Source of the DNA: Escherichia phage vB_EcoS_ESCO30
Direction: 5' to 3' (one strand)
Sequence record: NC_106513.1
Length of the DNA stretch: 64,000 bases
This document shows, one piece after another, positions 26,067 through 56,893 of the stretch (positions within the stretch are counted from its first letter, which is position 1; the number at the start of each line of letters is the position of its first letter). Both the position numbers and the translations under genes were made by a program. The notes beneath the pieces are model-generated. The model had not been told where the DNA came from. It was given only the letters and a program-made list of their open reading frames with translations, and did not search any database.

Positions 26067-26300
26067 TTACGATTCCTTGAGCAAAGAAGAAAGTTCAGCA
26101 TATACTTTATCTAATTCAAACCCTATGCGAAGAGATACGTTAGTCCTCCGTTGTTTAAGTAACCACTCGGATATGTTAGGGATGCCAGCTAGTCTGTGTG
26201 GTACCACCCTACATAGCTTTTCCGAAGTATCGTAAGCAGGAACTTTACGCTCTTTTACTGGAAACTTCCTTGTTTCCCATTTTTTATTCTTCACTGTCAT
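26067..26300 (-). CDS. hypothetical protein
   Basis: ORF trimmed to internal Met to limit overlap with upstream HNH gene. Confidence 0.3.
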   Translation of the reverse strand: MTVKNKKWETRKFPVKERKVPAYDTSEKLCRVVPHRLAGIPNISEWLLKQRRTNVSLRIGFELDKVYAELSSLLKES

Positions 26301-26814
26301 ATCTCTCCGAGGGATTAAATTCACCAAACAGCTCTTTAACTCCCCTAAGGTATAGCTGATGGGCTTCTTCCGGGGTATCTCGTCTACCAAAAATATGCTG
26401 CTTTCCATCGCAGTAAGCGTAGGCCATATACCTATTACCTCGTTTTACAACTCCAGTGAATCCGGTAGAATTAGTAGAACACTTCTTATTCTTTCCATTT
26501 TCGGAATAGGTAGCCTTACGTAAATTATCCCACAAGTTATTTAAACTATCACCGTCTTTATGGTCGATAGTTTTATCTCCAGGATCTTCGCCTGTCTTTA
26601 TAAACCAGATTATTCTATGGGCTAAGTAAGCTGTCCGCTCCCCATTTATCGTAAACTCTAGTTGTCTCCCAGTTTTCATTTTGGAGCCCGCTACCTTTCC
26701 CTTCCTTGGGCCAGATAACCAAATTAAGTCCCCAGTACTTTCGTCATACCTAAGCTTTTCTAGGATAAATGCCATAGGAGGCATTGGTTTATGCGTCTTC
26801 ATTAGTTGCTCCAA
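26284..26814 (-). CDS. HNH homing endonuclease (HNH + AP2-like domain)
   Basis: ...IDHKDGDSLNNLWDNLR... HNH core, ...TGFTGV... AP2-like motif. Confidence 0.65.
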   Translation of the reverse strand: MEQLMKTHKPMPPMAFILEKLRYDESTGDLIWLSGPRKGKVAGSKMKTGRQLEFTINGERTAYLAHRIIWFIKTGEDPGDKTIDHKDGDSLNNLWDNLRKATYSENGKNKKCSTNSTGFTGVVKRGNRYMAYAYCDGKQHIFGRRDTPEEAHQLYLRGVKELFGEFNPSERYDSEE

Positions 26815-29653
26815 GTTCTGACAGTACTTCTTCTGCCATAGCCTTCTCTTCCTCTGTCATGAATTTGAAAGGAATCGGCATACACTCGATTTTACAATAG
26901 GTTCTGTACCAGTCTACTATATTTTCAGTGTTCATATCCTTACCAATACCCATCATACCAAGATACATTCTAGCATATTTTGGGTTAGCACTCTGACCTG
27001 TTTTAAGGAAGAAGTCTTTCTTCTTACCTTTCAGAGCTTCTATGAAGGGTTTAATGGTTACATTTGAACACTTCTTAATGTCTTCCCAGAACATCTCGTG
27101 CATCTTATGGAAGAATGCAGCTCGATCGTTCGGCTTATCTTTGATATATTGTTCAACATGCTCAACTGTTACATCTTTAATAGACTCAAGATGATAATAG
27201 CGAACAAGAAGTAGTTTAGCTTCATACGCATCCGCATGACGTGGAGCACAATAATCTGGAGTTGAATGCAGAATAGCTTTGATTCGCTCTTCTGTGTACT
27301 CTTTACCAGCACCTTCGATAGTTCCCCAGCTTTCACTGAAAATATCAATAGTTGCACCTTGATCAAGTAAGTAATAACGTAAAGTACTAGTATAGTTCCT
27401 AGATTCCAGCTCCCTGCGACGTGCGTATAATTGCTGTGCTAATTCCAGCCAGCCTTCATCAATATTATATTGTTCAGAACCTGCGGAGAATCCACTCGTA
27501 GATTTATCAATAAAATAATAGATGTTCTGGGCACCACGGTCGCGCCTGATTGCTTGGAAACGCATGTTCGGCGCTTGATTACTGGTTCTAGTAATAACAA
27601 ATACGTTATCAAAATAGTTGAAGTCAACGCCACTCGTTACGGATGGACTACATAATAAACAGTCAATCTGTTGGTCAATTAGCTCATTAGTTGTATAATC
27701 CAGAATACGTCGAATATCCACATCTGAGGTGGAGTTTGAATGGATTTCCTTAACTAACGCACCAGTATTACGACGTAGTGCCATACCCTTCTCATTCAGC
27801 TCATCAGGGCCACAATCAGATACCAGAATAGATTTCTCACCCATCTCTAGAGAAGTCTGAAGTGCAACCCAAATACTGGATTCATCAGGGAACTCATAAG
27901 CATGAGCTTTTGACAGCATCTTACGGTGATGATTATAGAATGCAACTGGTTTATCGAACTCAATCAAAGAACCATATGCTTCAATTGTTTCCGCACTAAT
28001 ATCACCATCGGATAGTATAATGATTTTTGCAGTTGCAAGAATATCCCGAAGAACCTGAATACACTCGCGACGTTGCTTAACAACCGGGGCGAATAATAGG
28101 TCATTCATTACTGCATCACATTCATCAATAAAGATTGCATCAATTTGACCAATAAAACTTTTGAACTTATGTAAAGAGTGAATAGTTGTGGACATACGAT
28201 CAATAGCACCACGCTTGAAATTAAGCATATCTACAGACTTATCATATTGTCCTGCACTAAATTTCTTGGCATTTGAAGATACCAGTGCTCTAGTATTTGT
28301 AATTGCTAAGAAATTACCTTTAATAACCCCTGAATCTAACCAACGCACAACCGCCGTGGTTTTACCTGTGCCTAGACTTGCTTTTACAAAAGTCATATGA
28401 CCTTCTGGTGGCACAGTGTTTAATTTCAAGAAATTATCTGTTTCTAGAGAGTTAGTTTCTAGCTTTTTAAGTGGAATACCTTTTAAAACATCAGGTATAT
28501 CACGTTTAGAATTATTAACAAATGCTTTCAGAGCCTGTTTTCGACCGTTATTAAAGTAATCTTGAATATTACGACTATTATCTTTAGTTGCAATATACTC
28601 AGATAAAGCTGGGCGGATCTCCTTCTCTAGCCAACCAAAATCTACACCATCCTCTAACGCTCGGTGATAGAGTTTAGGAATAATACGTAGATACACTCCA
28701 TCTTCAGCTTCTTCTAGTTCGCTGATAGTTTCCTCTACTTTATCAGAGGCAGCTTTTTTACCTTTAATTTGATCGAGTAAAGAGTAGAATTCCTCTTTAA
28801 ACTCTCCTCTAGTTGTTTCATAGTCAACTAGATTATTAGGTAAATTTACTTTTGAGCCTTTAACAAATACCAGACGTGAAGCACCATCCGCTTTAAACGG
28901 ATCAACTATACCATCAGTAAATAAAGGATCTGCAAAATAGTGGAGCTGTACTGAAGAGTAATAAGCTAAGTCGGCAATATCAAAACCATACTTTTGTCTA
29001 CTACTTTCGTTGATAGATGTAAATAAGAACTTGATCTGACCCTGTGTAACTTTAACATTAGATTCTAGTATTAAGTGCATTCGGATACCTGGTTTTAGTC
29101 CAGCCGAAGACGATGCATGAGCAATAAACCCTGCATCAAGAGGAAACATATCCTCACTAATACTATTCAACATCCTAATAATATGACGCGCCATGCCAAC
29201 AAGATCAAACTTGTTACAACCTCCTGTATCTACAATACCATCCACATCCATTGCGATTATATGACTTGGATTAGATACATTAAAGTTGCCCTTCTTACGT
29301 CGCACATTATTTTTAGGTGCAAGACATCGACCTCGTACCACAACGATATGAGGGTCAGACGTTAAACGTCTCATAAGAGGAAGCATTTCTACTAGGGTTT
29401 GAGGATCAACTTCATCAATTACATCAAACTTGAAGGGCATTGAAGCTGGTTTACCTTCAGGATGCTTTGAGGAAAATCTTTTAGCAAAAAGATAATCTTC
29501 TGCTTTAACTTCTCGCCAATTGCCTGTGGCTAAATCGCGATGAAATCCTGCATGACCTTGTAGGATTGAAAACACAACAATACTCCTGTGTTGGAAATGA
29601 AATAAATTTTCTTTAGGACTATTCAGAAAGAATAGAACAACTGTTACTGTCAA
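26789..29653 (-). CDS. replication ATPase/helicase with N-terminal primase-polymerase-like domain
   Basis: 954 aa; N-terminal HIIAMDVDG acidic motif; Walker A SLGTGKTT, Walker B IFIDECD; start codon choice uncertain. Confidence 0.55.
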   Translation of the reverse strand: MTVTVVLFFLNSPKENLFHFQHRSIVVFSILQGHAGFHRDLATGNWREVKAEDYLFAKRFSSKHPEGKPASMPFKFDVIDEVDPQTLVEMLPLMRRLTSDPHIVVVRGRCLAPKNNVRRKKGNFNVSNPSHIIAMDVDGIVDTGGCNKFDLVGMARHIIRMLNSISEDMFPLDAGFIAHASSSAGLKPGIRMHLILESNVKVTQGQIKFLFTSINESSRQKYGFDIADLAYYSSVQLHYFADPLFTDGIVDPFKADGASRLVFVKGSKVNLPNNLVDYETTRGEFKEEFYSLLDQIKGKKAASDKVEETISELEEAEDGVYLRIIPKLYHRALEDGVDFGWLEKEIRPALSEYIATKDNSRNIQDYFNNGRKQALKAFVNNSKRDIPDVLKGIPLKKLETNSLETDNFLKLNTVPPEGHMTFVKASLGTGKTTAVVRWLDSGVIKGNFLAITNTRALVSSNAKKFSAGQYDKSVDMLNFKRGAIDRMSTTIHSLHKFKSFIGQIDAIFIDECDAVMNDLLFAPVVKQRRECIQVLRDILATAKIIILSDGDISAETIEAYGSLIEFDKPVAFYNHHRKMLSKAHAYEFPDESSIWVALQTSLEMGEKSILVSDCGPDELNEKGMALRRNTGALVKEIHSNSTSDVDIRRILDYTTNELIDQQIDCLLCSPSVTSGVDFNYFDNVFVITRTSNQAPNMRFQAIRRDRGAQNIYYFIDKSTSGFSAGSEQYNIDEGWLELAQQLYARRRELESRNYTSTLRYYLLDQGATIDIFSESWGTIEGAGKEYTEERIKAILHSTPDYCAPRHADAYEAKLLLVRYYHLESIKDVTVEHVEQYIKDKPNDRAAFFHKMHEMFWEDIKKCSNVTIKPFIEALKGKKKDFFLKTGQSANPKYARMYLGMMGIGKDMNTENIVDWYRTYCKIECMPIPFKFMTEEEKAMAEEVLSELGATNEDA

Positions 29654-30074
29654 TTTCTCAACAAATTAATCGCAAATACTGAAGTGGGGTGGCAACTTCC
29701 ACTTTCACGCTACACTGCCGCTTCACTATACCGCACAAATCCTTGAGGATGGCCGCTAAGCCAGATTTGCTCACCTAATGCTTCATGTACTAGCTCATAC
29801 TAGATGTAGTATACCTTACGTCATCACTTCTCAGAGTTTTTCACTCTTCCCGTCTCACTTCACAACCACCTCACACTAGGTTGCTTCGAGGCCTTACCAG
29901 GGTTCCTACGGGATGTAGATCGCTAAGTATTCTATTAATTATTTGTTTAAAAACTAACACGTAACAGTTAAAACAACCCTTAATGGGGCAGCCTAACTGT
30001 TCCGTATCGCGGATTGTAAACAAGAAAAATTAGCAAAATCAATTTTTACTAATGTCTCTCAATTCAATATAAAT

Positions 30075-30103
30075 ATTATATCAAGATTTTGAGCATCGTG
30101 CAA
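30075..30103 (-). promoter_or_regulatory. sigma70-like early promoter
   Basis: Minus strand TTGCAC-17-TATAAT. Confidence 0.45.
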
Positions 30104-30179
30104 GTAAATTTTTAAAGAGAATGCTATCATTGGTCTTGAGTACGGATAAAACCGAGCCAAAATGACTCGGTTACGTGGA

Positions 30180-30377
30180 TTAGACACTTAAAATACTTCT
30201 AATCTCTTCTATATACTTATCTACTTTTTTAGCATCTACTTTGCTTAGTTTTTCTATATCAAAATTAGGATCAGTAAACATTCTAGCTATCTCTATCTCT
30301 AGAGACTTACTAATTTTCCCTGTAGTATTCCACTTAGAAATCTTCCCTTTTATTTTCCAAAATTCCTTATTCATCAT
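30180..30377 (-). CDS. hypothetical protein
   Basis: 65 aa ORF. Confidence 0.35.
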   Translation of the reverse strand: MMNKEFWKIKGKISKWNTTGKISKSLEIEIARMFTDPNFDIEKLSKVDAKKVDKYIEEIRSILSV

Positions 30378-48902: not shown

Positions 48903-48974
48903 GCCGATCTAGTATAAACGGTATTATCAAGCCGTAACTGGTGGAAGATGTAGGTTCGAATCCTACGGTCGGTA
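48903..48974 (+). tRNA. tRNA-like element (anticodon not assignable)
   Basis: 7-bp acceptor pairing (2 G-U) and consensus T-arm GTAGG-TTCGAAT-CCTAC; D and anticodon arms do not fold canonically. Confidence 0.3.
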
Positions 48975-49476
48975 AGAACTGGATAACTGGTGCTTTTAAC
49001 GTAAAAGCTTCCGAGGTTAGTTGCGCACTGCCTAAACCACGCGGTAGTTGGTTCCAGACTAACCAACCAGTCTGCTGAATAGTTTTATTACGATTTAACT
49101 ATGTCCAGGCATAAAGAAGAACTTTAGAAGGTATTCTAGGTAGTGAAGTTTTTCCTCCATATCGGAGTAGTTTTTCAAGCTATCCACAAAGTGGGAAATG
49201 ATGGCATGAGAGATGCCACTAATGGTGCACAATAGCACAGGTAATTCGCGATAACCCCTGTTGAGTAGCAGCAAAAAGGTGGGGAGTCATGACCCTAACC
49301 TAACCGAGTCCTCAGTATACCGCAGGACATAACCACTAAGTCACCTTGACTTAAACTGGAAAATAATAGACGTTACTGTATTTTGTCTTGAAATACTTAA
49401 TGAGTGAGACTTATGACTCTCCCGGTATCGTCTGTATTTTTAAGAGTTTTTACGAGAGTTCTTAAAAATACTTAAA

Positions 49477-49548
49477 CGGGGTGTAGTCTAAGGGAGAGGC
49501 AGGAGTCTTCTAAATTCCTTTATGCAGGTTCGAATCCTGTCACCTCGG
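49477..49548 (+). tRNA. tRNA-Arg (anticodon TCT)
   Basis: Hand-folded cloverleaf; loop CTTCTAA; T-arm GCAGG-TTCGAAT-CCTGT; encoded CCA. Confidence 0.6.
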
Positions 49549-49585
49549 CCAATTTTATTAACTGTAACTAAGACAAAGGAAATAT

Positions 49586-50533
49586 ATGTTTAATACTAAA
49601 AATATGAAAGAACTGACTTCTGAGCAAAAAGTAATTCGCACTATTAAACGTTGGGGTATTGGTGCTGTAGTTGGTTTAGCAGGTTTAATCCTAGCTTTTA
49701 ATTCATATACTATTGTTTCTGATGGTACGGTTAAAACCCAAACATTTCTGGGTAAAGTAGATCCTAACCCAGTATTACCTGGTTTCCATCTTGTAAACCC
49801 ATTTGCATCTTTCGATACTTTTAGTACAAAAGATATTGCTGTAAAATTAGATAAACTTCAGGTTCCTAGCCAGGATAAGTTTAAATCCACTGTTGACCTG
49901 ACTGTTATGTTACAATTTGATGGTTCTAAGGCACCGATCAACCGTATTAACGCAGGTACTCAGGATCAGGCGTTAGATAAGTATGTAACTGAGAAATTGC
50001 TATCTACTATTCGTGAATTTGGTAAGTCTGTTCCTAAAGCACAAGATTTGTTTGACGCTAAAATTCAGGCACAATTGCAAACCGCAATTCAACAGGAAGT
50101 TGAAGAGTATGCACGCCCCTATGGTTACACAGTTAAGCAAGTATTCCTTCAGGATATTACATTGCCACCGGTAATTATGGAACAGGTACAGAATACCAAA
50201 GTTCGTGAAGAACAAGTTAATGCTGCGAAAGCTGAATTGGCTCGTGTTGAACAAGAAGCACAGCAGAAGGTTAAACAAGCAGAAGCAGATCGTGAAGCTC
50301 GTAACAACCAAGCTATTGCAAACGAACGTGATGCAGATGCTAAACTGTACGCAGCTAAGAAAGAAGCTGAAGCTAACGCTGCTCTGCAACGTACTATTAC
50401 TCCTGAGATGATTCGTTGGAAACAACTAGAAGTTGAAATGATTCGTGCTCAGAAATATCAAGGTGGTGTACCGCAAACAGTAGTTGGCACTGGTTACGAT
50501 GGCCAGATGATTATGGATATGCGTAACAAGTAA
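49586..50533 (+). CDS. SPFH/band-7 (prohibitin/HflC-like) domain membrane protein
   Basis: N-terminal TM helix, ...PGFHLVNPF... SPFH start motif, long C-terminal coiled coil. Confidence 0.55.
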   Translation: MFNTKNMKELTSEQKVIRTIKRWGIGAVVGLAGLILAFNSYTIVSDGTVKTQTFLGKVDPNPVLPGFHLVNPFASFDTFSTKDIAVKLDKLQVPSQDKFKSTVDLTVMLQFDGSKAPINRINAGTQDQALDKYVTEKLLSTIREFGKSVPKAQDLFDAKIQAQLQTAIQQEVEEYARPYGYTVKQVFLQDITLPPVIMEQVQNTKVREEQVNAAKAELARVEQEAQQKVKQAEADREARNNQAIANERDADAKLYAAKKEAEANAALQRTITPEMIRWKQLEVEMIRAQKYQGGVPQTVVGTGYDGQMIMDMRNK

Positions 50534-50557
50534 TACCCACATGTAATATTCGAAGTA

Positions 50558-50596
50558 AGCCCTGCGTTCCCTGGAGAGCGCAGGGCTTTTCTGTAT
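50558..50596 (+). terminator. rho-independent terminator
   Basis: GCCCTGCG-loop-CGCAGGGC hairpin followed by TTTTCTG. Confidence 0.65.
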
Positions 50597-50607
50597 TTAA
50601 GGTAAAA

Positions 50608-50645
50608 GAAAAGCCCCTAAGTCTTTCGACTAGGGGCTTTATTGT
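50608..50645. terminator. second hairpin terminator (bidirectional)
   Basis: GCCCCTAG-TCTTTCGA-CTAGGGGC hairpin with A-run upstream and T-run downstream. Confidence 0.6.
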
Positions 50646-50653
50646 TTGGTTCT

Positions 50654-50848
50654 TTAGAACCATATACTCTTATTACAGCAACCACCCATACGGGAGGCCA
50701 ATCTTGACTGAAAATCTACTCTAGGGGGCAGGATAAGAGTAGGCTTAAAGGCAAAGGGATTGAACGCCGGTATTTGTGTAAACATTGCTGGAGAGCAACA
50801 ACGTGCTACAGGCATTGGGCAGCACGAAACAGATTTTCTGCAACACAT
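50654..50848 (-). CDS. hypothetical Cys-rich small protein (uncertain)
   Basis: 64 aa ORF, 8 Cys, immediately downstream of Gln-rich gene; may be non-coding. Confidence 0.2.
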   Translation of the reverse strand: MCCRKSVSCCPMPVARCCSPAMFTQIPAFNPFAFKPTLILPPRVDFQSRLASRMGGCCNKSIWF

Positions 50849-50857
50849 AATTCCTCC

Positions 50858-51274
50858 TTAGGAGTTATTATCACCATTTTGAGCTTTTGCAACTTGGCTT
50901 TGGCAGAAGCTATTAAACTTACCCATAAGTGATACAAGCTGTTTCCCATCCTCTGTCTTTGCGAAGTCTTCGAAAAGGGCTAGTACTGCCTGTCCTTCCG
51001 CAGAAACCTGCGGTTGTTGGGTTTGTTGCTGAACTTGCTGCTGAGCCACCTGTTGCTGCATTTGTTGAGGCATTTGCGACTGCCCGCTCATTTGCTGCAT
51101 CATTTGCATAGGACTCACACTTCCAGGGTTTTGCTGGAGTTGTTGCTGCATCTGTTGCGCTTCTGCTAAACGCTGTTGCAACTGTTGTAGGTAAGGGTTA
51201 TCCAGTCCCGGAACGGGCTGCTGGGAGCCCATTTGTTGATTAAATCCGTTGTTTACAAAACCATATTTACTCAT
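50858..51274 (-). CDS. Gln-rich low-complexity protein
   Basis: 138 aa; extended QQ/QM repeats; SD upstream. Confidence 0.5.
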   Translation of the reverse strand: MSKYGFVNNGFNQQMGSQQPVPGLDNPYLQQLQQRLAEAQQMQQQLQQNPGSVSPMQMMQQMSGQSQMPQQMQQQVAQQQVQQQTQQPQVSAEGQAVLALFEDFAKTEDGKQLVSLMGKFNSFCQSQVAKAQNGDNNS

Positions 51275-51295
51275 AATGGGCTCCTCCCCTTAATT

Positions 51296-52276
51296 TTAAG
51301 CCGGCAGTTTAGCCTGCAGACCAGCCAGAGTCTGAGTGATAGCACCAAGACTTACAGCGATTTGGTTGATTACCTGACCGTTTGCACCACTACCTGCAGC
51401 GATTGCTTCGCGCAGACGGCATTCATTCAGTTCGTCCTGGATACGTGCAGTAGTTACACCAGCGATTGCAGTCTGAAGCTCACAGCAACATTCAGCAAGC
51501 TGACGTTCGATAGCGTTCTGGTTAGCACACATCTGAGCCTGAACAGCGGCAAACTGGTTGTTGGTCTGAATAGACTGCTGGAAAGCAATCTGAGCAGAGT
51601 CAAACTTATCTTGAGCACGTGCTATCTGGTTAGCAGCGAAAGACTGATCCATCTGACGAGAAAGATCGAACTGACCCTGAATAACGTTACGAGTTTCAGC
51701 ACAGATCTGATTTGACAGATTAGCACCTGTACCATAGATAGTAGTCAGAACTTGCTGAGTGCTAGCAGCTTGAGCAGCTCCCACACCGTTTACTGCGCTT
51801 AGAACAGCCCCAGTGCCCTGGTTAGCTTCTGTACGAGTAGTATTGATTGCAGCTAGAATACTTGCAGTATCTTGGTTAGAAAGGATCGCGTCCACAGCAG
51901 TTCCTTCAGCGGCAACACCAACACCGCGACCAAAACCACCAAAACCACCAAATCCGCCTGTTAATAGAGCACCGATTAGGATAGCTCCGAATAGACCCAT
52001 ACCTTCTCCACCGAAAGCACTTGCGTTAGCTGGGAATGCACCCATGCCAGGGAAGCCGTTAGTAAATACGTTTACTGGTTCTTGCATTTTATGTTTTCCA
52101 TATTTATGACAATGTTCATCATCGTCATCTTCTTCATCTTTATCATCGTGTTCACGATGTTCTTCTTCGTAGGCTTTGACTTTCTCCCACTTTTTCTTAT
52201 CTGATTCCTCGTGACGATGCAGTTCTGCTGCTACGCTAGCGACGGTTTCAGGACTCTTAGCTACTTCTTCTGTCAT
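51296..52276 (-). CDS. hypothetical protein with acidic/His-rich N-terminus and Gly-rich hydrophobic segment
   Basis: Start set at MTEEV after strong AGGAGGTG SD; GLFGAILIGALLTGGFGGFGGFG segment; Ala/Gln-rich coiled C-terminus. Confidence 0.55.
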   Translation of the reverse strand: MTEEVAKSPETVASVAAELHRHEESDKKKWEKVKAYEEEHREHDDKDEEDDDDEHCHKYGKHKMQEPVNVFTNGFPGMGAFPANASAFGGEGMGLFGAILIGALLTGGFGGFGGFGRGVGVAAEGTAVDAILSNQDTASILAAINTTRTEANQGTGAVLSAVNGVGAAQAASTQQVLTTIYGTGANLSNQICAETRNVIQGQFDLSRQMDQSFAANQIARAQDKFDSAQIAFQQSIQTNNQFAAVQAQMCANQNAIERQLAECCCELQTAIAGVTTARIQDELNECRLREAIAAGSGANGQVINQIAVSLGAITQTLAGLQAKLPA

Positions 52277-52483
52277 TTTTTGACACCTCCTAGTATATAG
52301 AAAATGTGTGTCTCTTTGATCACTCATCCATAACATATACTTTACACTACCCCGGCGAAAATGTCAAGGGGTCTTTAAAAATTGCCCCCGGATTTTTAGT
52401 GGGGTCACAAATTTTGGTCCTCACCACTTATCTGCTACCCTTAAGTGCCCTATGATTTTCCCCTAAAAAGTTAAAAAATTTGA

Positions 52484-52512
52484 TTGCTTGAATGCTAAAT
52501 TCTCTGTATAAT
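52484..52512 (+). promoter_or_regulatory. sigma70-like early promoter
   Basis: TTGCTT-17-TATAAT plus conserved leader. Confidence 0.5.
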
Positions 52513-53061
52513 ATATCTATAAATTTGAGAGAGGAACCAAATATGAATGTTGATGAGCTAACACAGCACCTCTTATCTAGGGGATTTGATACTGATAAAT
52601 ATCATTGCTGGTTAAGTCCGGAAGGATGGCTAACAGTCCCGTTGTATGATTTCTCTGGGATGTTGAGGGGCTATCAAACTTATAATCCTTCTGCTCCAAA
52701 AGGTCATGGTAAGTGCCCCCTTGAAGCTAAATACTTTACTTATTCTACCACCCAGTGTGTATGGGGACTAGAAACTCTCAATGGAGATGAAAAAGTAGTA
52801 TTGATCGCTGAATCTGTATTTAAGGCAGTTGCGTTACATAACGCTGGTTATCCAGCCATAGCAATGTTGGGTTCTTCTCCAGGAAAAGCGTTATTAAAGC
52901 AACTAAAATTACTACCTTTTAAATTGGTAGCTGTTGGTGATAATGATCCTGCTGGTGAAAAATTTGCTAGAAAATTAAACGGTTTTGTTTCTCCCGTAGA
53001 TGTGGATGAGATGTCTACCGAAAACTTGAAAAATTTTCTTGCTATGAAGCTAAATTTCTAA
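52492..53061 (+). CDS. hypothetical protein
   Basis: 189 aa ORF; probable start at internal Met MNVDELT after GAGAGAGG SD. Confidence 0.45.
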   Translation: MLNSLYNISINLREEPNMNVDELTQHLLSRGFDTDKYHCWLSPEGWLTVPLYDFSGMLRGYQTYNPSAPKGHGKCPLEAKYFTYSTTQCVWGLETLNGDEKVVLIAESVFKAVALHNAGYPAIAMLGSSPGKALLKQLKLLPFKLVAVGDNDPAGEKFARKLNGFVSPVDVDEMSTENLKNFLAMKLNF

Positions 53062-53081
53062 TATAATATATCTTATAAATT

Positions 53082-53168
53082 CGGAAGAATAGCATAACGG
53101 TATTGCAGCAGATTGCTAATCTGTCGGTTTGAAATATAGCCTTGTGGGTTCGATTCCCACTTCTTCCG
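53082..53168 (+). tRNA. tRNA-Ser (anticodon GCT), type II
   Basis: Loop TTGCTAA; long variable arm; T-arm GTGGG-TTCGATT-CCCAC; encoded CCA. Confidence 0.6.
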
Positions 53169-53177
53169 CCAGATTTT

Positions 53178-53252
53178 GGTTCTCAAGCTCATATGGTATG
53201 AGCACCCGGCTCATAACCGGAAGGTACGTAGGTTCGAATCCTCGGGGAGCCA
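53178..53252 (+). tRNA. tRNA with CAT anticodon (Met or Ile-lysidine)
   Basis: Acceptor and D-arm fold well; loop CTCATAA; T-stem has mismatches. Confidence 0.45.
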
Positions 53253-53275
53253 CCAACTTAATTAGGGGATTACAA

Positions 53276-53464
53276 GTGGAATTATACATAGTTTATGTTG
53301 TGTTCATTCAAGATAGAGAATACCCTGATGAATATAAAAAAGGATATAGATTAGCCAGAGCTACCTCTGAAGCCCAAGCTATGGATAAAGTGGCAGATTA
53401 TATGATTACGGTAGAAAACGTACACTATATCGACTACCTTGAAGCCTCAAAAGTAATTGACTAG
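53276..53464 (+). CDS. hypothetical small protein (GTG start, uncertain)
   Basis: Portion of the 53129-53464 ORF not overlapping tRNAs; AGGGG SD 7 nt upstream of GTG. Confidence 0.25.
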   Translation: MELYIVYVVFIQDREYPDEYKKGYRLARATSEAQAMDKVADYMITVENVHYIDYLEASKVID

Positions 53465-53473
53465 GGAGACTAT

Positions 53474-53659
53474 ATGTCTAAGTTTCAAGAACTCAAGCAA
53501 GAGCTAGAAGAATGTGCCTGCCCTGAATGTCTGGGGATTGGAGAAAGTTCTGATGCAGAAGCAGGAGATACTTTTTGCAATATCTGGGTTTGCCCAAATT
53601 GCAATGGTACAGGTATTAATCCTAACTGTGGTATTTCTCTAGATATTGAAAGAGGATAA
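53474..53659 (+). CDS. hypothetical Cys-rich zinc-ribbon-like small protein
   Basis: 61 aa; CACPEC...CPNCNGTG cysteine pairs. Confidence 0.4.
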   Translation: MSKFQELKQELEECACPECLGIGESSDAEAGDTFCNIWVCPNCNGTGINPNCGISLDIERG

Positions 53660-53761
53660 TACCTGTGAAACTAAAAGATTATTATATTGGTTGGTTTGTG
53701 GGACTAGTAGTAGGATTTTCACTAGGCTATAATATGTATCAACTAATAAACTGATTACACG

Positions 53762-53835
53762 GGGGGTGTAATCGAATTGGCATAGGTACTGGACTTAAAA
53801 TTCAGGTTTTGTGGGTTCGAATCCCACCACCCCTA
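53762..53835 (+). tRNA. tRNA with TAA anticodon (Leu-type anticodon, short variable loop)
   Basis: Acceptor GGGGGTG/CACCCCT; loop CTTAAAA; T-arm GTGGG-TTCGAAT-CCCAC; encoded CCA. Confidence 0.45.
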
Positions 53836-54013
53836 CCAAATTAAGGAAATAAGATGTATAGACATCCACCTCCGCCAACACGTCGTTCTAGGGAAGTCAT
53901 CCTTATGGAATTGACTAAAAACTTCAAGGCAACTCTTGAAGATAGAGATCTAGGCACGGATGAAGATATTGATTTTATTTGTAGACTATTAAAGATGAAA
54001 CTGGAGAAACAAC

Positions 54014-54220
54014 ATGGCTAATCCTGAAATTACCGCACAACGTTTCATGCTTAAAGGCATGATTGCTGAGGCAGGTATAACTCAAGAGGTTGCAGATTTT
54101 CATAAGCAATTTCTTGACATTATAACTCTAGCTAAAGAGACTGGAGAAAAAGAACATGGAGCGGCAATTATGGCTATATCTCTTATTAGTCTAGACTTGG
54201 CTGAAGAATCTGGAGTTTAG
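54014..54220 (+). CDS. hypothetical protein
   Basis: 68 aa ORF. Confidence 0.4.
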   Translation: MANPEITAQRFMLKGMIAEAGITQEVADFHKQFLDIITLAKETGEKEHGAAIMAISLISLDLAEESGV

Positions 54221-54250
54221 CTCCTCCAAACAGAATTTTTAAAAATGTAC

Positions 54251-54280
54251 TTGCCTTTTGCTTTAAATTTCTGATATAAT
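54251..54280 (+). promoter_or_regulatory. sigma70-like early promoter
   Basis: TTGCCT-18-TATAAT plus conserved leader. Confidence 0.45.
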
Positions 54281-54310
54281 AGTTATATAAATTGATGAAG
54301 GAGTTAACGA

Positions 54311-54586
54311 ATGCAAAATCGTGTTATAGCAGCTGGTATTGAAAGTGCAATCTGTAAATCCTGGGAAGGCTGGGAAGGTGAGATTGAATGGCTTTATTTC
54401 TATGATGTAGAACTTCTGCCGGAAGTTAAAGCTAAATGTGTTAAAGCTGGCATGGCTCCGGATGCAAAAGCTGATATTGATATTTCAATGTCTGAACTTA
54501 AAGGTCGTGTAGTTACCGTTAGTAATGAGGGGGAAGAAGTTTTCGAACTTCCATTCTCCTTAACTGTCACTCCTAAGTTCGACTAA
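54311..54586 (+). CDS. hypothetical protein
   Basis: 91 aa ORF with GGAG SD. Confidence 0.45.
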   Translation: MQNRVIAAGIESAICKSWEGWEGEIEWLYFYDVELLPEVKAKCVKAGMAPDAKADIDISMSELKGRVVTVSNEGEEVFELPFSLTVTPKFD

Positions 54587-54622
54587 CTAATACAGCACTG
54601 AGCAAGTTCTTTAAAATTTGAC

Positions 54623-54651
54623 TTGCTCAGTGCCTTAAAACTTGGTATAAT
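54623..54651 (+). promoter_or_regulatory. sigma70-like promoter inside terminator-like hairpin
   Basis: TTGCTC-17-TATAAT; -35 lies within GCACTGAGCAAG...CTTGCTCAGTGC inverted repeat. Confidence 0.45.
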
Positions 54652-54716
54652 AGTTATCTAATTTGGAAACATATTTAAAAGTGTTTAAATTAGAATTTTT
54701 GAATACTTCTAAATAT

Positions 54717-54801
54717 GGGCGTTTATTCCGTAAGTGGTAGCGGAGGGGATTGTAAATCCCTGGTCATTGCGACTCGAGTGGTTCGACTCCATTAACGCCC
54801 A
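54717..54801 (+). tRNA. tRNA-Tyr (anticodon GTA), type II
   Basis: Acceptor GGGCGTT/AACGCCC; loop TTGTAAA; long variable arm; T-arm AGTGG-TTCGACT-CCATT; encoded CCA. Confidence 0.6.
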
Positions 54802-54821
54802 CCAAATTAAAGGTAAAGGAT

Positions 54822-55313
54822 ATGTATATTGATCGGATAATTCAAGAAGCTGCAAATAGAGGTATTATACAGTTGGGTTCACCAGCTGATATAAATAAAG
54901 ATCTAATATTAGAAAGCCTCACATTTGGTACAGCTAACTTTGGTCGCGATAGTAATCGTCGATATAGCTTGAAGTTATCTGCACTATCTTTTATCAAGTA
55001 TAACAAAAGTATTGGAGAAAAATCCAGCTGTGGTTTTATTTACGCAATAACTAACCCAGCTTGGGATAACTATGTAAAAATTGGTATGTCTTCTGATCCT
55101 AAAACAAGATTAAGAAATTACCAAACCTATTCTCCTTTACGTGATTATAAGTTAATACATTGGTCATTTTGGTTTAATGCTAGAGAAGCGGAGAAAATGC
55201 TTCATAATAGCTTTCCTGAACGGCTTAATGAATGGGTAGTGTTAGACAGAGGTGTAGACGAAATACTTTCCGAGTTTAACAATTTATCCAATAAGCAATT
55301 TAAGTCCTGTTAG
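54822..55313 (+). CDS. T5orf172/GIY-YIG-related domain protein
   Basis: GFIYAITNPAWDNYVKIGMSSDPKTRLRNYQT motif block. Confidence 0.55.
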   Translation: MYIDRIIQEAANRGIIQLGSPADINKDLILESLTFGTANFGRDSNRRYSLKLSALSFIKYNKSIGEKSSCGFIYAITNPAWDNYVKIGMSSDPKTRLRNYQTYSPLRDYKLIHWSFWFNAREAEKMLHNSFPERLNEWVVLDRGVDEILSEFNNLSNKQFKSC

Positions 55314-55377
55314 ACAAACTGGTAAAGTCACTACCCTTTCAAGGTAGGATTTGCGGGTTCGATCCCCGCACAGGACG
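55304..55377 (+). tRNA. tRNA-Glu (anticodon TTC)
   Basis: Acceptor GTCCTGT/ACAGGAC; loop CTTTCAA; T-arm GCGGG-TTCGATC-CCCGC; 5' end overlaps stop codon of upstream CDS. Confidence 0.6.
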
Positions 55378-55386
55378 CCAATTTCT

Positions 55387-55462
55387 GCATTCCTAGAGTG
55401 TTACTGGACAGCATGTCGGTCTCCAAAACCGTACGGTCTAGGTTCGAGTCCTAGTAGGTTTG
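55387..55462 (+). tRNA. tRNA-like gene, possible Trp (CCA anticodon), acceptor stem unresolved
   Basis: T-arm CTAGG-TTCGAGT-CCTAG and CGGT-CTCCAAA-ACCG anticodon hairpin; acceptor pairing not found by eye. Confidence 0.3.
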
Positions 55463-55471
55463 CCAAAATTT

Positions 55472-55543
55472 GCACCTTTAGCTGAGATGGATTAGCGCTT
55501 GCCTGAAGAGCTTGAGAGGTTCGTTCGATTCGAACAGGGTGCA
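55472..55543 (+). tRNA. tRNA (possibly Phe, GAA), anticodon stem imperfect
   Basis: Acceptor GCACCTT/AGGGTGC; D-arm and T-arm GTTCG-TTCGATT-CGAAC fold; loop CTGAAGA with two stem mismatches. Confidence 0.4.
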
Positions 55544-55557
55544 CCAATTTGAAGGAG

Positions 55558-55836
55558 ATGCTGATGCATCCTGAAAACTTCTTTATTTACTGCGCGGATA
55601 AGTCGCTGAAACGTAGAATTAATAAAGTCTATCATTATCGTGCTAGTCAACAGCCTTATGTATATGCTTTTGACGGTGATCACATCCCACTAGAACAATT
55701 ATCTTGTGATTACATGATATTGAAGAACTTTGACGAGACGAAGATCTCAAGCGTTCATAATCGACAGAATCCTTTAACGTGGAAATATAAGAGGAAAAAG
55801 AAAGGCATCAAATTCTTAAAAAATGTAGTTGCTTAG
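55558..55836 (+). CDS. hypothetical protein
   Basis: ORF beginning after tRNA; GGAG SD upstream. Confidence 0.4.
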   Translation: MLMHPENFFIYCADKSLKRRINKVYHYRASQQPYVYAFDGDHIPLEQLSCDYMILKNFDETKISSVHNRQNPLTWKYKRKKKGIKFLKNVVA

Positions 55837-55857
55837 TTTCCAAAAGTTCTGTATAAT
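55829..55857 (+). promoter_or_regulatory. sigma70-like early promoter
   Basis: TTGCTT-17-TATAAT; overlaps 3' end of upstream ORF. Confidence 0.5.
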
Positions 55858-55886
55858 AATTACATAAATTGAACTGGAGAAGCGAC

Positions 55887-56111
55887 ATGACAGAACAAGA
55901 ATTGAATGAACGTAAGTTGGTAATGCTTCGCTTACTAAATATTTTCTCTGGTATGGATGGTGGAATTGACTTTGTTCATCTACGTTCTTTCGTAGAAGAA
56001 GCCGAGGGCGAATCTATCACTAAAATCCTTAAACACATGGGATTACTTTTAGACGCTGCTAATGTGGCTACTGAATATAAACTAGAAGATCTACCAGAGC
56101 GTGTTAAATGA
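55887..56111 (+). CDS. hypothetical protein
   Basis: Start at MTEQEL after GGAGAAG SD. Confidence 0.45.
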   Translation: MTEQELNERKLVMLRLLNIFSGMDGGIDFVHLRSFVEEAEGESITKILKHMGLLLDAANVATEYKLEDLPERVK

Positions 56112-56299
56112 AACGATTAGTTAGATTTAAGTGTTGTGGTTCCGAGCACATTTTCACACATCTTCGTGAATTTAAAATGTGCGATTGTGGTAAATCAGGC
56201 TATGACTCAGGAGATGGGTTCTACACCCGTACTCTAGGGAACTTCAATGATCTAGAATTTGAAGATCTCGAAAAACAAGATAAATCGACCGTTGGCTGA
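56108..56299 (+). CDS. hypothetical Cys-containing small protein
   Basis: 63 aa; CCGSEH...CDCG motif; translationally coupled. Confidence 0.4.
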   Translation: MKRLVRFKCCGSEHIFTHLREFKMCDCGKSGYDSGDGFYTRTLGNFNDLEFEDLEKQDKSTVG

Positions 56300-56358
56300 A
56301 TGGCTTAGGCGAAGGATTGCAAATCCTTTTTATGTGAGTTCAAATCTCATGCGGTCGT
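56286..56358 (+). tRNA. tRNA-Cys (anticodon GCA)
   Basis: Acceptor CGACCGT/GCGGTCG; loop TTGCAAA in AAGGA/TCCTT stem; T-arm GTGAG-TTCAAAT-CTCAT; overlaps 3' end of upstream CDS. Confidence 0.6.
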
Positions 56359-56513
56359 CCAATTTGCTGAAAGAATTGTTAAATCAATTCAGGCACGCGT
56401 AGGAACACTGTCTCCGTAATTGAAAGATGAGGCACGGTTTGGAGAGGTATGCCGCTACACGCTACGGTGCTAACTCCGTCTAGGTGAAAATCCTAGTCAG
56501 CAATATAAATTTA

Positions 56514-56593
56514 GGGTCGTTAGCCAAGCGGTTTGGCGGTGGACTGTTAATCCATGTCGAAAGACAACGTAGGTTCGAATCCTACACGGCCCG
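56514..56593 (+). tRNA. tRNA with GTT (Asn) anticodon and extended variable arm
   Basis: Acceptor GGGTCGT/ACGGCCC; D-stem GCCA/TGGC; loop CTGTTAA; 13-nt variable hairpin GTCGAAAGAC; T-arm GTAGG-TTCGAAT-CCTAC. Confidence 0.5.
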
Positions 56594-56698
56594 CCAAATT
56601 CTGTGTAGAGTTAAGTAAACCGGTAGCCAACCAGCTATCATTGCTGACATCGAATTCAGCCACAGATACCATTTTCATTAATAATTGAGGAAACAAGC

Positions 56699-56884
56699 AT
56701 GTCCAAGAATGTAATTGCACAGCTAGAAGTTCATCGTGATAGCACTATCAACAATATTGAAGTTGAGAAGAAATACATCGAAGAACTTAAACATGATATA
56801 CTAGTAAGTCTCAATCGTCTTAATGTACGAAAAGAGTTTCTTAAAGAACTTAATGCAGCTATTGAAAAACTCAAAGCTGAGTAA
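56699..56884 (+). CDS. hypothetical coiled-coil small protein
   Basis: 61 aa ORF with GAGGAAA SD. Confidence 0.4.
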   Translation: MSKNVIAQLEVHRDSTINNIEVEKKYIEELKHDILVSLNRLNVRKEFLKELNAAIEKLKAE

Positions 56885-56893
56885 ATAAATTAT

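What the first reader, a model, noticed from the sequence alone, without database searches (positions are those of the whole stretch)
29654..30074. Long untranslated region upstream of the 954-aa replication ATPase gene
About 400 nt separate the minus-strand promoter (30075-30103) from the first in-frame ATG of the helicase-like gene. There is no convincing SD at that ATG and no ORF of 60 aa or more in between. The segment could be a regulatory leader, a small-RNA gene or an origin-associated element, consistent with the neighbouring gene being a candidate initiator.
Basis: inference. Interest (0 to 1): 0.45.

Follow-up and report, generated by a model that had tools for sequence, protein, structure and literature searches.

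The report
Large structured RNA leading T5 helicase
The "empty" stretch in front of the replication helicase gene of this T5-like phage is a 493-base untranslated leader, most of which folds into a large RNA structure that is conserved in T5 relatives, matches no described RNA family, and has no known function.

Summary
The window is a T5-like phage (Tequintavirus). The gene is the homologue of the T5 D2 helicase, annotated "replication origin binding". The true start is GTG at 29575, behind a strong AGGAG Shine-Dalgarno that is conserved in 32 related loci. The leader is therefore about 493 nt and the protein 928 aa, not 954.

The leader is not a spacer. About 430 nt form a multi-helix structure on the transcribed strand: a 5' hairpin, a long closing helix, helices P2 and P3, and several internal hairpins, one carrying an invariant CUUAGCGG. 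Across 29 distinct sequences, 93% of predicted pairs hold. 43 pairs change on both sides, against 25.7±2.4 in shuffles (0/500). G·U pairs make up 14-17% of pair cells.

Rfam, E. coli genomes and plasmids gave no match. There are no iterons and no DnaA boxes.

Most likely this is a new class of structured leader RNA tied to D2, acting as a cis-regulator or an RNA partner. An origin or primer transcript and a processed trans-acting RNA remain open. Function is inferred, not shown.

The parts
30146..30172 (-). Terminator hairpin (AACCGAGTCA/TGGCTCGGTT followed by a T run) that ends the upstream operon
   Evidence: Inverted repeat I10. The equivalent site is annotated as a terminator in T5 and HASG4. 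The stem covaries in relatives (CGAGTCAAAATGACTCG, CCAGAGGATTATCCTCTGG).
30075..30103 (-). Early sigma-70 promoter: -35 TTGCAC (30098-30103), 17-nt spacer, -10 TATAAT (30075-30080)
   Evidence: Sequence. TTGC-N19-TATAAT is present in 29 of the 32 related loci. Annotated as a promoter in T5 NC_005859.
29576..30068 (-). The full 5' untranslated leader of the D2 helicase mRNA, about 493 nt. The transcription start near 30068 is inferred (7th base after the -10), not mapped.
   Evidence: No terminator-like site between promoter and gene.
30022..30060 (-). P0, the 5'-terminal hairpin (16 pairs, loop AUUGA)
   Evidence: Consensus fold of 9 leaders. Pairs change on both sides in the Klebsiella and Pectobacterium phages, for example GC to UA, AU to UA or CG, AU to GC. 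A hairpin of the same shape is present in the Providencia phage.
29983..30008 (-). Block I, GAUACGGAACAGUUAGGCUGCCCCAU. Nearly invariant and not explained by any supported helix.
   Evidence: 21 of 25 aligned positions are invariant across 29 sequences from lineages whose D2 N-terminus is only 67-73% identical. It occurs once in the window.
29937..29970 (-). P1 5' strand, part of a long irregular closing helix of about 32 pairs
   Evidence: Helix 3: 15 of 32 pairs change on both sides and 91.6% of cells are paired. Also helices 5-7. The sequence differs completely between leader types while the pairing is kept.
29638..29671 (-). P1 3' strand
   Evidence: As for the P1 5' strand. The G to A change at AACUGUUAC is matched by C to U in GUAACAGUU in 14 sequences (pair 45-387).
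29926..29932 (-). P2 5' strand (GAAUAC), followed by block II, UUAGCGAUCU (29917-29926)
   Evidence: Pairs with 29674-29680. The pairing is GAAUA/UAUUU here, GAGCA/UGCUU in DU_PP_V and GGAUA/UAUCU in My1 (helix 4).
29674..29680 (-). P2 3' strand
29913..29923 (-). P3 5' strand (GCG-AU-CUACAU, with a conserved AU bulge)
   Evidence: Pairs with 29707-29715. The pairing is CUACAU/GUGUAG here, CUGCGU/GCGCAG in close relatives, CUGUGU/GCACAG in T5 and CUAGAA/UUCUAG in Sugarland. 6 of 9 pairs change on both sides and 98.4% of cells are paired (helix 8).
29707..29715 (-). P3 3' strand, within block V (CAGUGUAGCG, 29708-29717)
29849..29912 (-). Ha domain: helix Ha (CCCGU/ACGGG) enclosing hairpin Hb (GCAACC/GGUUGU, 29862-29884) and a small hairpin
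   Evidence: Ha is CCCGU/ACGGG, CCCAU/AUGGG or UUCGU/GCGAA. Hb is CAAC/GUUG, CAAU/AUUG or CGGC/GCCG (helices 6, 9 and 10).
29825..29847 (-). Hairpin Hd (AGAGU-GAAAA-ACUCU, with a GNRA-like loop) and block III, CUGAGAAGUG (29825-29834)
   Evidence: The stem is AGAGU/ACUCU, GGAGU/ACUCC, GGGG/CCCU or GGUC/GACC in the different lineages.
29772..29806 (-). Internal hairpin H15/H16 (CAUCUAGU...AUUAGGUG)
   Evidence: Helix 15: 94.5% of cells paired and 3 pairs changed on both sides. Supported only among A-like sequences.
29735..29770 (-). Hairpin IV: a covarying outer stem, a 3' internal loop, and an inner stem GGCU/GGCC carrying the invariant CUUAGCGG (29753-29760)
   Evidence: Helix 17: 7 of 8 pairs change on both sides and 97.4% of cells are paired. 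CUUAGCGG is invariant in all 29 sequences. It is also present, inside a stem of different sequence, in the Providencia and Proteus phages.
29682..29704 (-). Hairpin VI (AAGUGG/CCACUU with loop AAGUUGCCACC), branching between P3 and P2
   Evidence: The U-A pair becomes G-C in L004, L012 and L034. Helix 21. T5 has AUAUGA/UCAUAU at the same place.
29619..29635 (-). Small hairpin (CUAUUC/GAAUAG) between the structured core and the ribosome-binding site, with no U-run after it
   Evidence: Helix 21 and helix 22, with weak covariation. No terminator was called.
29573..29587 (-). Shine-Dalgarno AGGAG (29583-29587) and start codon GTG (29573-29575) of the D2 gene
   Evidence: Conserved in 32 loci. This is the annotated start in T5 and HASG4 and the start used to express D2.
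26789..29575 (-). Homologue of the T5 D2 helicase ('replication origin binding protein'), 928 aa
   Evidence: PHROG 3712 matched over the full length. Pfam Herpes_ori_bp over residues 394-534 in 928-aa numbering. Herpesvirus OBP structures at E about 2e-5. Identity with D2 of Wong et al. 2013.

Best explanation
The segment is the 5' leader (about 493 nt) of the mRNA for the T5-type D2 helicase. It is transcribed by host RNA polymerase from the early promoter at 30075-30103. About 430 nt of it fold, as RNA on the sense strand, into a conserved architecture.

Shown:
- The architecture is a 5' hairpin (P0) and a near-invariant 26-nt block, followed by a long rod of stacked helices (P1-P2-P3).
- That rod closes a multi-branched core containing the Ha/Hb domain, a GNRA-capped hairpin, hairpin IV with invariant CUUAGCGG, and hairpin VI.
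- The element is non-coding and strand-specific.
- It is conserved by compensatory change.
- It occurs once in the window.
- In this phage it is co-transcribed with D2.

Inferred: it is a functional RNA domain tied to D2. The reading I favour is that the folded core is bound by a factor and sets how much D2 is made from the mRNA it heads, through mRNA stability and/or access to the ribosome-binding site 50-90 nt downstream. The most economical candidate for that factor is the N-terminal half of D2, which diverges together with the core. This would be autogenous, type-specific control of a dose-sensitive replication protein. The mechanism step is a hypothesis, not a result.
For: Locus identity: the window is a T5-like phage and the gene is D2.

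Transcription unit:
- A terminator is followed by the promoter, and there is no terminator before the gene.
- The promoter is conserved in 29 of 32 loci.

Structure:
- On 29 distinct sequences, 93.1% of cells are paired. 43 pairs change on both sides against 25.7±2.4 in shuffles (0/500). The covariation score is 0.358 against 0.178 in shuffles and about 0.08 when partners are slid.
- On 15 A-like sequences from four genera, with a full model, 57 pairs change on both sides against 18.6±3.0 (0/500).
- Compensatory changes also occur between phages that are more than 95% identical, in Ha, Hd, P3 and hairpin VI.
- Two Providencia phage variants show them too.

Strand: 14-17% of pair cells are G·U and 1.4-2% are A·C.

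Non-coding: plus 1-nt indels.

Single copy: model R1 scores 99 bits at 29679-29776; the next hit in the window scores 10 bits.

Link to D2:
- Window and T5 are 97-100% identical in the promoter and 5' leader, and 30-55% in the core (29955-29660).
- They are about 80-88% identical over D2 codons 1 to about 540, and 93-99% in the rest of D2.
- The core and the N-terminal half of D2 therefore form one divergent block.
- An ORF-free stretch of 490-1300 nt precedes the D2 homologue in every Demerecviridae lineage looked at.
Against: - No conserved expression platform was found. Predicted pairing of the Shine-Dalgarno or start codon differs between lineages, and the candidate anti-SD pairings do not hold in the two Pectobacterium phages.
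- The element is far larger than known protein-binding translational operators.
- In Proteus phage Stubb a second perfect consensus promoter lies between the RNA region and D2, so D2 can be made there without the leader.
- In Enterobacter phage KKP_3711 a terminator-like hairpin sits 30 nt before the start.
- The coupling to D2 expression is therefore not uniform, which fits an RNA or DNA element with a role of its own at least as well.
- The joint divergence of core and D2 N-terminus can be plain linkage.
- No transcript, binding or reporter data exist.
- Folding-energy z-scores are unremarkable: -2.9 for the leader against -1.6 and -1.9 for coding controls.
Confidence: 0.45

Rival explanations
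1. Origin-associated transcript. Transcription from the early promoter yields a folded RNA that forms a persistent hybrid (R-loop) or is handed to the replication machinery as a primer. The DNA under it would then be the T5-type origin, placed next to the gene of the helicase that opens it. This works like ColE1 RNA II, the T4 oriF/oriG transcripts, or herpesvirus oriLyt RNAs. A variant is that the displaced non-template DNA strand, which has the same sequence, forms the hairpins that a UL9-like helicase recognises.
For: - The element is always adjacent to the UL9-like helicase gene.
- A strong promoter is followed by about 490 nt that encode nothing.
- The RNA-like strand is G-rich (skew +0.10 to +0.24 in all lineages).
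- The core diverges together with the N-terminal half of D2, as origin and initiator specificity modules do.
- Variable coupling to D2 expression in Proteus and KKP_3711 phages suits an element with its own role.
- The T5 origin has never been mapped (PMC3632103 and PMC10055335).
Against: - There are no iterons, no DnaA box and no repeated copies of any conserved block.
- There is no convincing antisense promoter.
- Recombitron strand bias suggests mainly unidirectional T5 replication from one genome end.
- The published GC-skew 'origin' in phiLLS lies about 3 kb away from the leader.
- A 14-17% G·U content, GNRA-like loops and a helix closing 300 nt fit a free folded RNA better than a hybrid or extruded DNA.
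Confidence: 0.2
2. Trans-acting non-coding RNA. The structured core is cut out of the leader, or is stable on its own. It then works away from D2 mRNA, as an RNA partner of a phage or host protein (host takeover, anti-defence decoy, ribonucleoprotein), like other large phage RNAs of unknown role.
For: - The size, number of junctions, invariant unpaired blocks and GNRA-like loops resemble large tertiary-structured RNAs more than operators.
- In Proteus phage the RNA region is bracketed by two consensus promoters, so it can be a unit of its own.
- In KKP_3711 a promoter and a terminator-like hairpin bracket about 1.1 kb.
- The fast-diverging core with retained architecture is what an arms race or a co-evolving partner would give.
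Against: - There is no 3' terminator or recognisable processing signal in this phage.
- The position in front of D2 is invariant in all lineages.
- There is no second copy and no complementary target among the conserved blocks in the window.
- Nothing is known about partners.
- Homology of the KKP_3711, Vibrio and Aeromonas regions to this RNA was not demonstrable.
Confidence: 0.25
3. Riboswitch-type sensor of a small molecule, for example a nucleotide pool signal, that gates the replication helicase.
For: - It is a conserved folded domain in the 5' UTR on the same strand as the gene.
- The neighbourhood is nucleotide metabolism (nrdD upstream).
- The terminator-like hairpin just before the start in KKP_3711 looks like an attenuator.
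Against: - No Rfam riboswitch or any other family matches, even at E up to 10.
- The core differs by 45-70% between phages of the same host, whereas ligand pockets are usually the most conserved part.
- No conserved expression platform was found.
- It is two to three times larger than typical aptamers.
Confidence: 0.05
4. No function of its own: a mis-annotated start, an unannotated small protein gene, the relic of a lost gene, or a spacer whose predicted fold is chance.
For: - ORFs of 38-60 aa exist in some copies.
- Folding z-scores are close to those of coding controls.
Against: - The D2 reading frame cannot extend beyond 29653, and the GTG with its SD is conserved.
- No ORF is shared between lineages and frame-breaking indels occur.
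- Covariation far exceeds the shuffled and slid controls.
- 8- to 26-nt blocks are invariant where the neighbouring protein is only 67-73% identical.
Confidence: 0.03

Closest known systems
Large 'ornate' bacterial and phage RNAs of unknown function (GOLLD, ROOL; Rfam families)
   Same: Several hundred nucleotides long, many helices and junctions, conserved unpaired blocks, carried by phages, no known function.
   Different: There is no match to their covariance models. Those RNAs typically sit beside tRNA genes, whereas here the tRNA cluster is about 19 kb away. This RNA is the leader of a specific protein gene and is restricted to T5-like phages.
ColE1-type primer RNA II, and the T4 oriF/oriG origin transcripts
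   Same: A strong promoter gives a roughly 500-nt folded, G-rich, non-coding transcript at a replication locus, and the sequence diverges while the fold is kept.
   Different: There is no antisense RNA I-type promoter, no evidence of a hybrid or of an origin here, and the transcript runs on into a protein gene.
Leader of the satellite phage P4 alpha (primase-helicase) operon, which encodes the CI/C4-type immunity RNA
   Same: A long untranslated leader in front of a replication helicase or primase gene that contains a functional structured RNA.
   Different: The C4 antisense RNA family was not detected in the all-family Rfam scans. T5-like phages are virulent. The core here is about five times larger, and no target repeats (seqA/seqC-like) were seen.
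Autogenous translational operators of phage replication genes (T4 gene 32, gene 43, regA targets)
   Same: A replication protein whose own mRNA leader carries a conserved structure, and a possible type-specific match between leader and protein.
   Different: Those operators are tens of nucleotides long and overlap the ribosome-binding site. This core is about 430 nt and ends about 50 nt upstream of the SD, and binding is untested.
Riboswitches and T-box leaders
   Same: A folded sensor domain in a 5' UTR with covariation-supported helices.
   Different: No family matches. No conserved terminator or SD-sequestering switch was found. The core is hypervariable between close relatives.

Membership tests
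Any described RNA family (Rfam 15, 4227 models) | Score at or above the family's gathering threshold | tested here: not met
   The whole window yields only tRNAs. For the leader alone at E up to 10, there are only sub-threshold C/D-box sRNA hits of 10-18 bits against gathering scores of 36-54. The leaders of 10 relatives give nothing relevant.
Riboswitch / cis-regulatory leader | Conserved folded domain supported by covariation, in the 5' UTR and on the strand of the regulated gene | tested here: met
   Promoter and gene are on the same strand with no terminator between them.
Riboswitch / cis-regulatory leader | Conserved expression platform (terminator/antiterminator, or SD sequestration by alternative pairing) | tested here: inconclusive
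   There is no terminator in this phage. Candidate anti-SD pairings (UAUUCUU with AGGAGUA) hold in Tequintavirus and partly in others, but not in My1. Predicted SD accessibility varies from 0.01 to 1.0 between lineages. KKP_3711 has a terminator-like hairpin.
Riboswitch / cis-regulatory leader | Specific ligand or protein binding | not testable with these tools
   Needs in-line probing or binding assays.
ColE1 RNA II-type primer / transcription-activated origin | Antisense regulator RNA promoter on the opposite strand near the 5' end | tested here: not met
   The only plus-strand promoter-like sites score 9 of 12 matches, at 29467-29496 (inside D2) and 30188-30217 (upstream of the promoter). 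This is no more than expected by chance.
ColE1 RNA II-type primer / transcription-activated origin | Persistent RNA-DNA hybrid and initiation of DNA synthesis at its end | not testable with these tools
   Only a G>C skew of the RNA-like strand is seen.
Iteron or DnaA-box replication origin | Arrays of direct repeats (iterons) and/or DnaA boxes next to an AT-rich unwinding element | tested here: not met
   Direct repeats are limited to three two-copy families of 9-15 nt. The only DnaA-box-like 9-mer (1 mismatch) is at 29533 inside the gene. The conserved blocks are single-copy in 64 kb.
GOLLD / ROOL large phage RNAs | Match to the family model; usual location beside tRNA genes | tested here: not met
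   No match. The nearest tRNA gene is at 48903, about 19 kb away.
P4 CI / P1 C4 antisense RNA | Match to the C4 family model and repeated target sequences in the same leader | tested here: not met
   No Rfam hit. No internal target-like repeats.
Group I / II self-splicing intron | Match to intron models; insertion within a gene with restorable exons | tested here: not met
   No Rfam hit. The element lies between a promoter and a start codon and is present in all relatives, so no intron-less allele is seen.
Autogenous translational operator (T4 gp32/gp43 type) | Operator overlapping the ribosome-binding site and bound by the gene's own product | not testable with these tools
   There is only indirect support: the core and the N-terminal half of D2 diverge as one block. 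The core ends about 50 nt before the SD.
T5 D2 helicase (the neighbouring gene) | Full-length homology to T5 D2 / T5.108, with the SF2 UL9-like ATPase domain | tested here: met
   The N-terminal 300-400 aa are 88-90% identical to T5 D2. PHROG 3712 covers residues 1-926. Pfam PF02399 and herpesvirus OBP structures also match. The ORF and start are the same as in Wong et al. 2013.

The most novel reading that the evidence does not exclude
A previously unrecognised class of large (about 430 nt) tertiary-structured RNA is the RNA partner of a UL9-like helicase. It would be transcribed next to the helicase gene, co-evolve with the N-terminal half of the helicase, and mark or prime the long-sought T5 replication origin through RNA-dependent, type-specific initiation. 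Equivalent long non-coding regions in all Demerecviridae would be divergent members of the same system.
Probability: 0.2. Interest if true: 0.8.

Novelty: new variant of a known kind. Interest (0 to 1): 0.6.

Why it matters
T5 is a classical model phage whose replication start has never been located and whose D2 helicase has unusual properties. Its reference annotation has shown a promoter followed by about 470 unexplained bases for twenty years.

This analysis shows that the gap is a covariation-supported RNA of about 430 nt, present in hundreds of sequenced T5-like phages of Escherichia, Salmonella, Klebsiella and Pectobacterium, with recognisable relatives in Providencia and Proteus phages. 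That adds a new large structured RNA class in a genetically tractable system. It also gives a concrete handle on how a virulent phage controls or starts replication, through leader mutants, D2 binding and origin mapping.

The two sharply different core types flanked by near-identical sequence provide a natural swap experiment for specificity.

Tried and rejected
- Extending the ORF upstream: impossible beyond 29653, and the GTG with its SD is conserved.
- Known RNA families: nothing was found. The C/D-box sRNA hits come from CUGA...UGAUGA in one subtype and are far below threshold.
- Resemblance to RNase P RNA (ACAGAAC..CGGCU, GUGAAAGGG): this was noticed by eye, but no RNase P model scored even at E up to 10, so it was dropped.
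- Mimicry of a host or plasmid sequence: no match in 5,426 E. coli genomes or in PLSDB plasmids.
- Iterons, DnaA boxes and repeated blocks: none.
- Metagenome pattern scan with block I: 120 loci came back, almost all chance hits; only L107 and L166 were real.
- Protein word-index search for more D2 relatives: 2 hits, not useful.
- Folding-energy z-scores: not discriminating.
- Covariance model R1 (hairpin IV to VI) against distant lineages: only a 13-bit local hit in Providencia. Nothing in Proteus, Vibrio, Aeromonas or KKP_3711.
- Block searches in those lineages: likewise negative.
- Alignment of four Vibrio phage regions: too similar or too different to test covariation.
- Conserved SD sequestration: not found.
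- N-terminal domain of D2: a single-sequence AlphaFold model was unusable (pLDDT 35), and profile searches of PDB and Pfam gave nothing. The 'primase' label in some GenBank records, and my reading of DxD-type motifs, remain unverified.
- Literature searches: no description of this leader was found.
Full report
**What the locus is**

The window belongs to a T5-like phage. The 751 bases around the finding are 98.8% identical to Escherichia phage HASG4 and match 539 phage records, almost all from Escherichia, Salmonella, Klebsiella, Proteus and related hosts. The window also carries 21 tRNA genes, as T5 does.

The gene downstream of the finding is the homologue of T5.108, annotated 'replication origin binding protein'. 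It matches PHROG 3712 over its full length. It carries a weak Pfam Herpes_ori_bp match and weak matches to solved herpesvirus origin-binding proteins in the ATPase region.

It is the protein characterised as the T5 D2 bipolar helicase. The ORF expressed by Wong et al. (AY692264, 51489-54275, 2787 bp) begins GTGTTTTCTATC, the same start as here (PMC3632103).

**Check of the observation**

TTGCAC is at 30098-30103, followed by a 17-nt spacer and TATAAT at 30075-30080. It follows a terminator hairpin at 30146-30172. T5's reference annotation marks the same terminator and promoter. The motif TTGC-N19-TATAAT is present in 29 of 32 related loci.

Nothing of 60 aa or more is encoded between promoter and gene.

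The gene start was misjudged. In all 32 loci recovered with the N-terminal 300 residues, the match begins at the GTG that corresponds to window 29575; the Klebsiella phages have ATG there. That start codon is preceded by AGGAG. The maximal ORF from TTG 29653 (954 aa) is not the gene.

The protein is 928 aa and the untranslated stretch is about 493 nt, taking the 7th base after the -10 as the start. That transcription start is inferred, not mapped.

**The leader is conserved in an unusual way**

Six leader types were recovered. Type A includes this window. Type B includes T5 itself and the Epseptimavirus variant B'. The others are the Klebsiella phage Sugarland type and the two Pectobacterium phages DU_PP_V and My1.

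All six share:
- the promoter;
- a 5' hairpin;
- a nearly invariant 26-nt block (GAUACGGAACAGUUNGGCUGCCCCAU);
- short blocks UUAGCGAUCU, CUGAGAAGUG, GGCUUAGCGGCC, CAGUGUAGCG and GGAAGUUGCCACCCC.

The sequence between these blocks differs. Providencia and Proteus phages have longer leaders of about 610 and 790 nt. They carry a related first block and the CUUAGCGG motif inside a stem of different sequence.

**Structure**

The differences are compensatory. Examples follow.

| Helix | Pairings seen |
|---|---|
| P3 | CUACAU/GUGUAG (window), CUGCGU/GCGCAG (close relatives), CUGUGU/GCACAG (T5), CUAGAA/UUCUAG (Sugarland) |
| Ha | CCCGU/ACGGG, CCCAU/AUGGG, UUCGU/GCGAA |
| Hd | AGAGU/ACUCU, GGAGU/ACUCC, GGGG/CCCU, GGUC/GACC |
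| Hairpin VI | AAGUGG/CCACUU, AAGGGG/CCCCUU |

The roughly 32-bp closing helix P1 has entirely different sequences in each type.

Two formal counts were made:
- On 29 distinct sequences with an RNAalifold consensus, 93.1% of cells pair. 43 of 92 pairs change on both sides, against 25.7±2.4 in column shuffles (0 of 500 reach it). The covariation score is 0.358, against 0.178 in shuffles and about 0.08 when partners are slid by 1-3 columns.
- On 15 A-like sequences from four phage genera, using a full model for the window's RNA, 57 of 138 pairs change on both sides against 18.6±3.0 (0/500).

The helices with support are P0, P1, P2, P3, Ha, Hb, Hd, H15, hairpin IV and hairpin VI. Five predicted helices have none and are not claimed. 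Both structures were derived from these same sequences, which favours them somewhat. The slid-partner controls and the compensatory changes between near-identical phages argue that the signal is real.

Two Providencia variants also keep a 10-11-bp helix through five or six changes on each side.

**Strand, coding and copy number**

- G·U pairs make up 14-17% of pair cells, and A·C (the antisense equivalent) 1.4-2%. The fold therefore belongs to the transcribed sense strand.
- No ORF is shared between lineages, one lineage has none of 25 aa or more, and 1-nt indels occur among near-identical copies.
- A covariance model of hairpins IV-VI finds one site in the 64-kb window (99 bits). It scores 80 bits in T5 and 61 bits in a Sugarland-like metagenomic contig.
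- The conserved blocks occur once in the window.

**Not a known family**

Rfam 15 gives nothing for the window, for the leader alone at E up to 10, or for ten relatives. The exceptions are sub-threshold C/D-box hits caused by CUGA...UGAUGA in one subtype.

There is no similarity in E. coli genomes or plasmids. Six literature searches found no description of this leader. One genome paper placed a GC-skew 'origin' about 3 kb away.

**Context in other lineages**

An ORF-free stretch precedes the D2 homologue everywhere I looked.

| Phage | ORF-free stretch (nt) |
|---|---|
| T5 | about 470 |
| Vibrio phages Brizo, BBMuffin, PVo5, PG07 | 636-712 |
| Proteus phage Stubb | about 820 |
| Enterobacter phage KKP_3711 | about 1270 |
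| Aeromonas phage TS3 | at least 1300 |

I could not show that the Vibrio, Aeromonas and KKP_3711 regions are homologous to this RNA or structured.

The coupling to D2 varies between lineages:
- This phage has no terminator between the RNA and the gene.
- Proteus phage has a second 12/12 consensus promoter between the RNA region and D2.
- KKP_3711 has a terminator-like hairpin 30 nt before the start.

**A divergent module**

Identity between the window and T5 changes along the locus.

| Region | Identity, window vs T5 |
|---|---|
| Promoter and first ~110 nt of the leader | 97-100% |
| Core (29955-29660) | 30-55% |
| D2 codons 1 to about 540 | about 80-88% |
| Rest of D2 | 93-99% |

The RNA core and the N-terminal half of D2 therefore differ together between the two co-circulating types. 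A natural recombinant (L028) with a 75-nt A-type patch between them still has a B-type core and a B-type N-terminus. This is what a specificity pair would look like, but linkage alone could produce it.

**How it most likely works**

Shown: this is a large, conserved, strand-specific RNA structure, co-transcribed with D2.

Inferred: it is a functional RNA tied to D2. I favour a cis-acting role (0.45). In this reading, a factor binds the folded core and sets D2 output from its own mRNA. The N-terminal half of D2 is the simplest candidate for that factor.

Against this reading:
- No conserved SD-sequestering switch was found.
- The element is much larger than known operators.
- The Proteus and KKP_3711 arrangements suggest the element has a role beyond gating D2.

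The rivals:
- **Origin or primer transcript, or R-loop element (0.2).** It is attractive because the T5 origin is unknown and the helicase is UL9-like. However, it lacks iterons, DnaA boxes and an antisense partner, and recombitron data suggest replication from a genome end.
- **Processed trans-acting RNA (0.25).**
- **Small-molecule riboswitch (0.05).**
- **No function (0.03).**

**Comparison and novelty**

In kind it resembles large phage-borne structured RNAs (GOLLD, ROOL) and the functional leaders of replication genes (P4 alpha operon, ColE1 RNA II, T4 operators). It fails every membership test that could be run. I class it as a new variant of a known kind: a new structured leader or non-coding RNA class specific to T5-like phages.

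Interest is 0.6. The structure is solid and sits in a model phage at a replication gene, but its function is unknown.

Noticed in passing
L012 about 953-1049 (also L025 and L034; the same contigs as L040, L057 and L066): A 97-nt insertion lies between the 5' hairpin P0 and block I of the leader. It is present in both A-type and T5-type backgrounds and is flanked by TTTTTCTT on both sides. It is predicted to fold on its own (-20 kcal/mol). It looks like an optional extra domain or a small mobile insert.
   Followed up: partly
L008, L015, L022 and L028, about 700-1000: Some relatives carry an HNH-type homing endonuclease gene immediately upstream, with its own promoter (TTTGCA...TATAAT) that then drives the leader. 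L028 keeps a duplicated copy of the P0 hairpin beside it, in front of the normal promoter.
   Followed up: partly
window 26284-26814 (-): An HNH endonuclease ORF (Pfam HNH_3) overlaps the 3' end of the D2 gene. T5 has hegI at this place, while HASG4 and phiLLS lack it, so it is a mobile homing endonuclease.
   Followed up: partly
window 30180-30377 (-): A 65-aa ORF (PHROG 29527, function unknown) lies just upstream of the terminator. It is present in this phage and HASG4 but absent from T5 and phiLLS.
   Followed up: no
L067 705-733 and 1435-1464 (Proteus phage Stubb): Two perfect 12/12 sigma-70 consensus promoters bracket the roughly 700-nt non-coding region in front of the D2 homologue, with no terminator between them.
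   Followed up: partly
L071 1404-1425 (Enterobacter phage KKP_3711): A terminator-like hairpin followed by a T run sits 30 nt before the D2 start, at the end of a roughly 1.1-kb ORF-poor stretch that begins with an 11/12 promoter (258-286). It could be an attenuator or the end of a separate RNA gene.
   Followed up: no
window 29566-29593 (-): A small hairpin places the SD in its loop and the start codon in its stem (AACACA/UGUGUU). In Klebsiella phage Sugarland the start is AUG and the partner is CAU (AACAU/AUGUU), which is a compensatory change. The hairpin is not seen in the Pectobacterium or Providencia phages.
   Followed up: partly
window 28400-29575 (-), D2 residues 1-390: The N-terminal 390 residues match no Pfam family and no solved structure. 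A single-sequence structure prediction failed (pLDDT 35). Some GenBank records call the protein 'DNA primase' or 'primase C'. Invariant motifs such as IIAMDVD and SSSAGxKxGxRxH look like a DxD-type catalytic site, but this is my reading only.
   Followed up: partly
window 48903-61385 (+): A cluster of 21 tRNA genes lies on the strand opposite to the replication genes, as in T5.
   Followed up: no
window 29808-29857 (-): CUGA followed by UGAUGA (C/D-box-like, potentially able to form a kink-turn) produces sub-threshold hits to archaeal C/D sRNA models. UGAUGA is present only in one A subtype, and other copies have UGAUUC or UGUUAC.
   Followed up: partly
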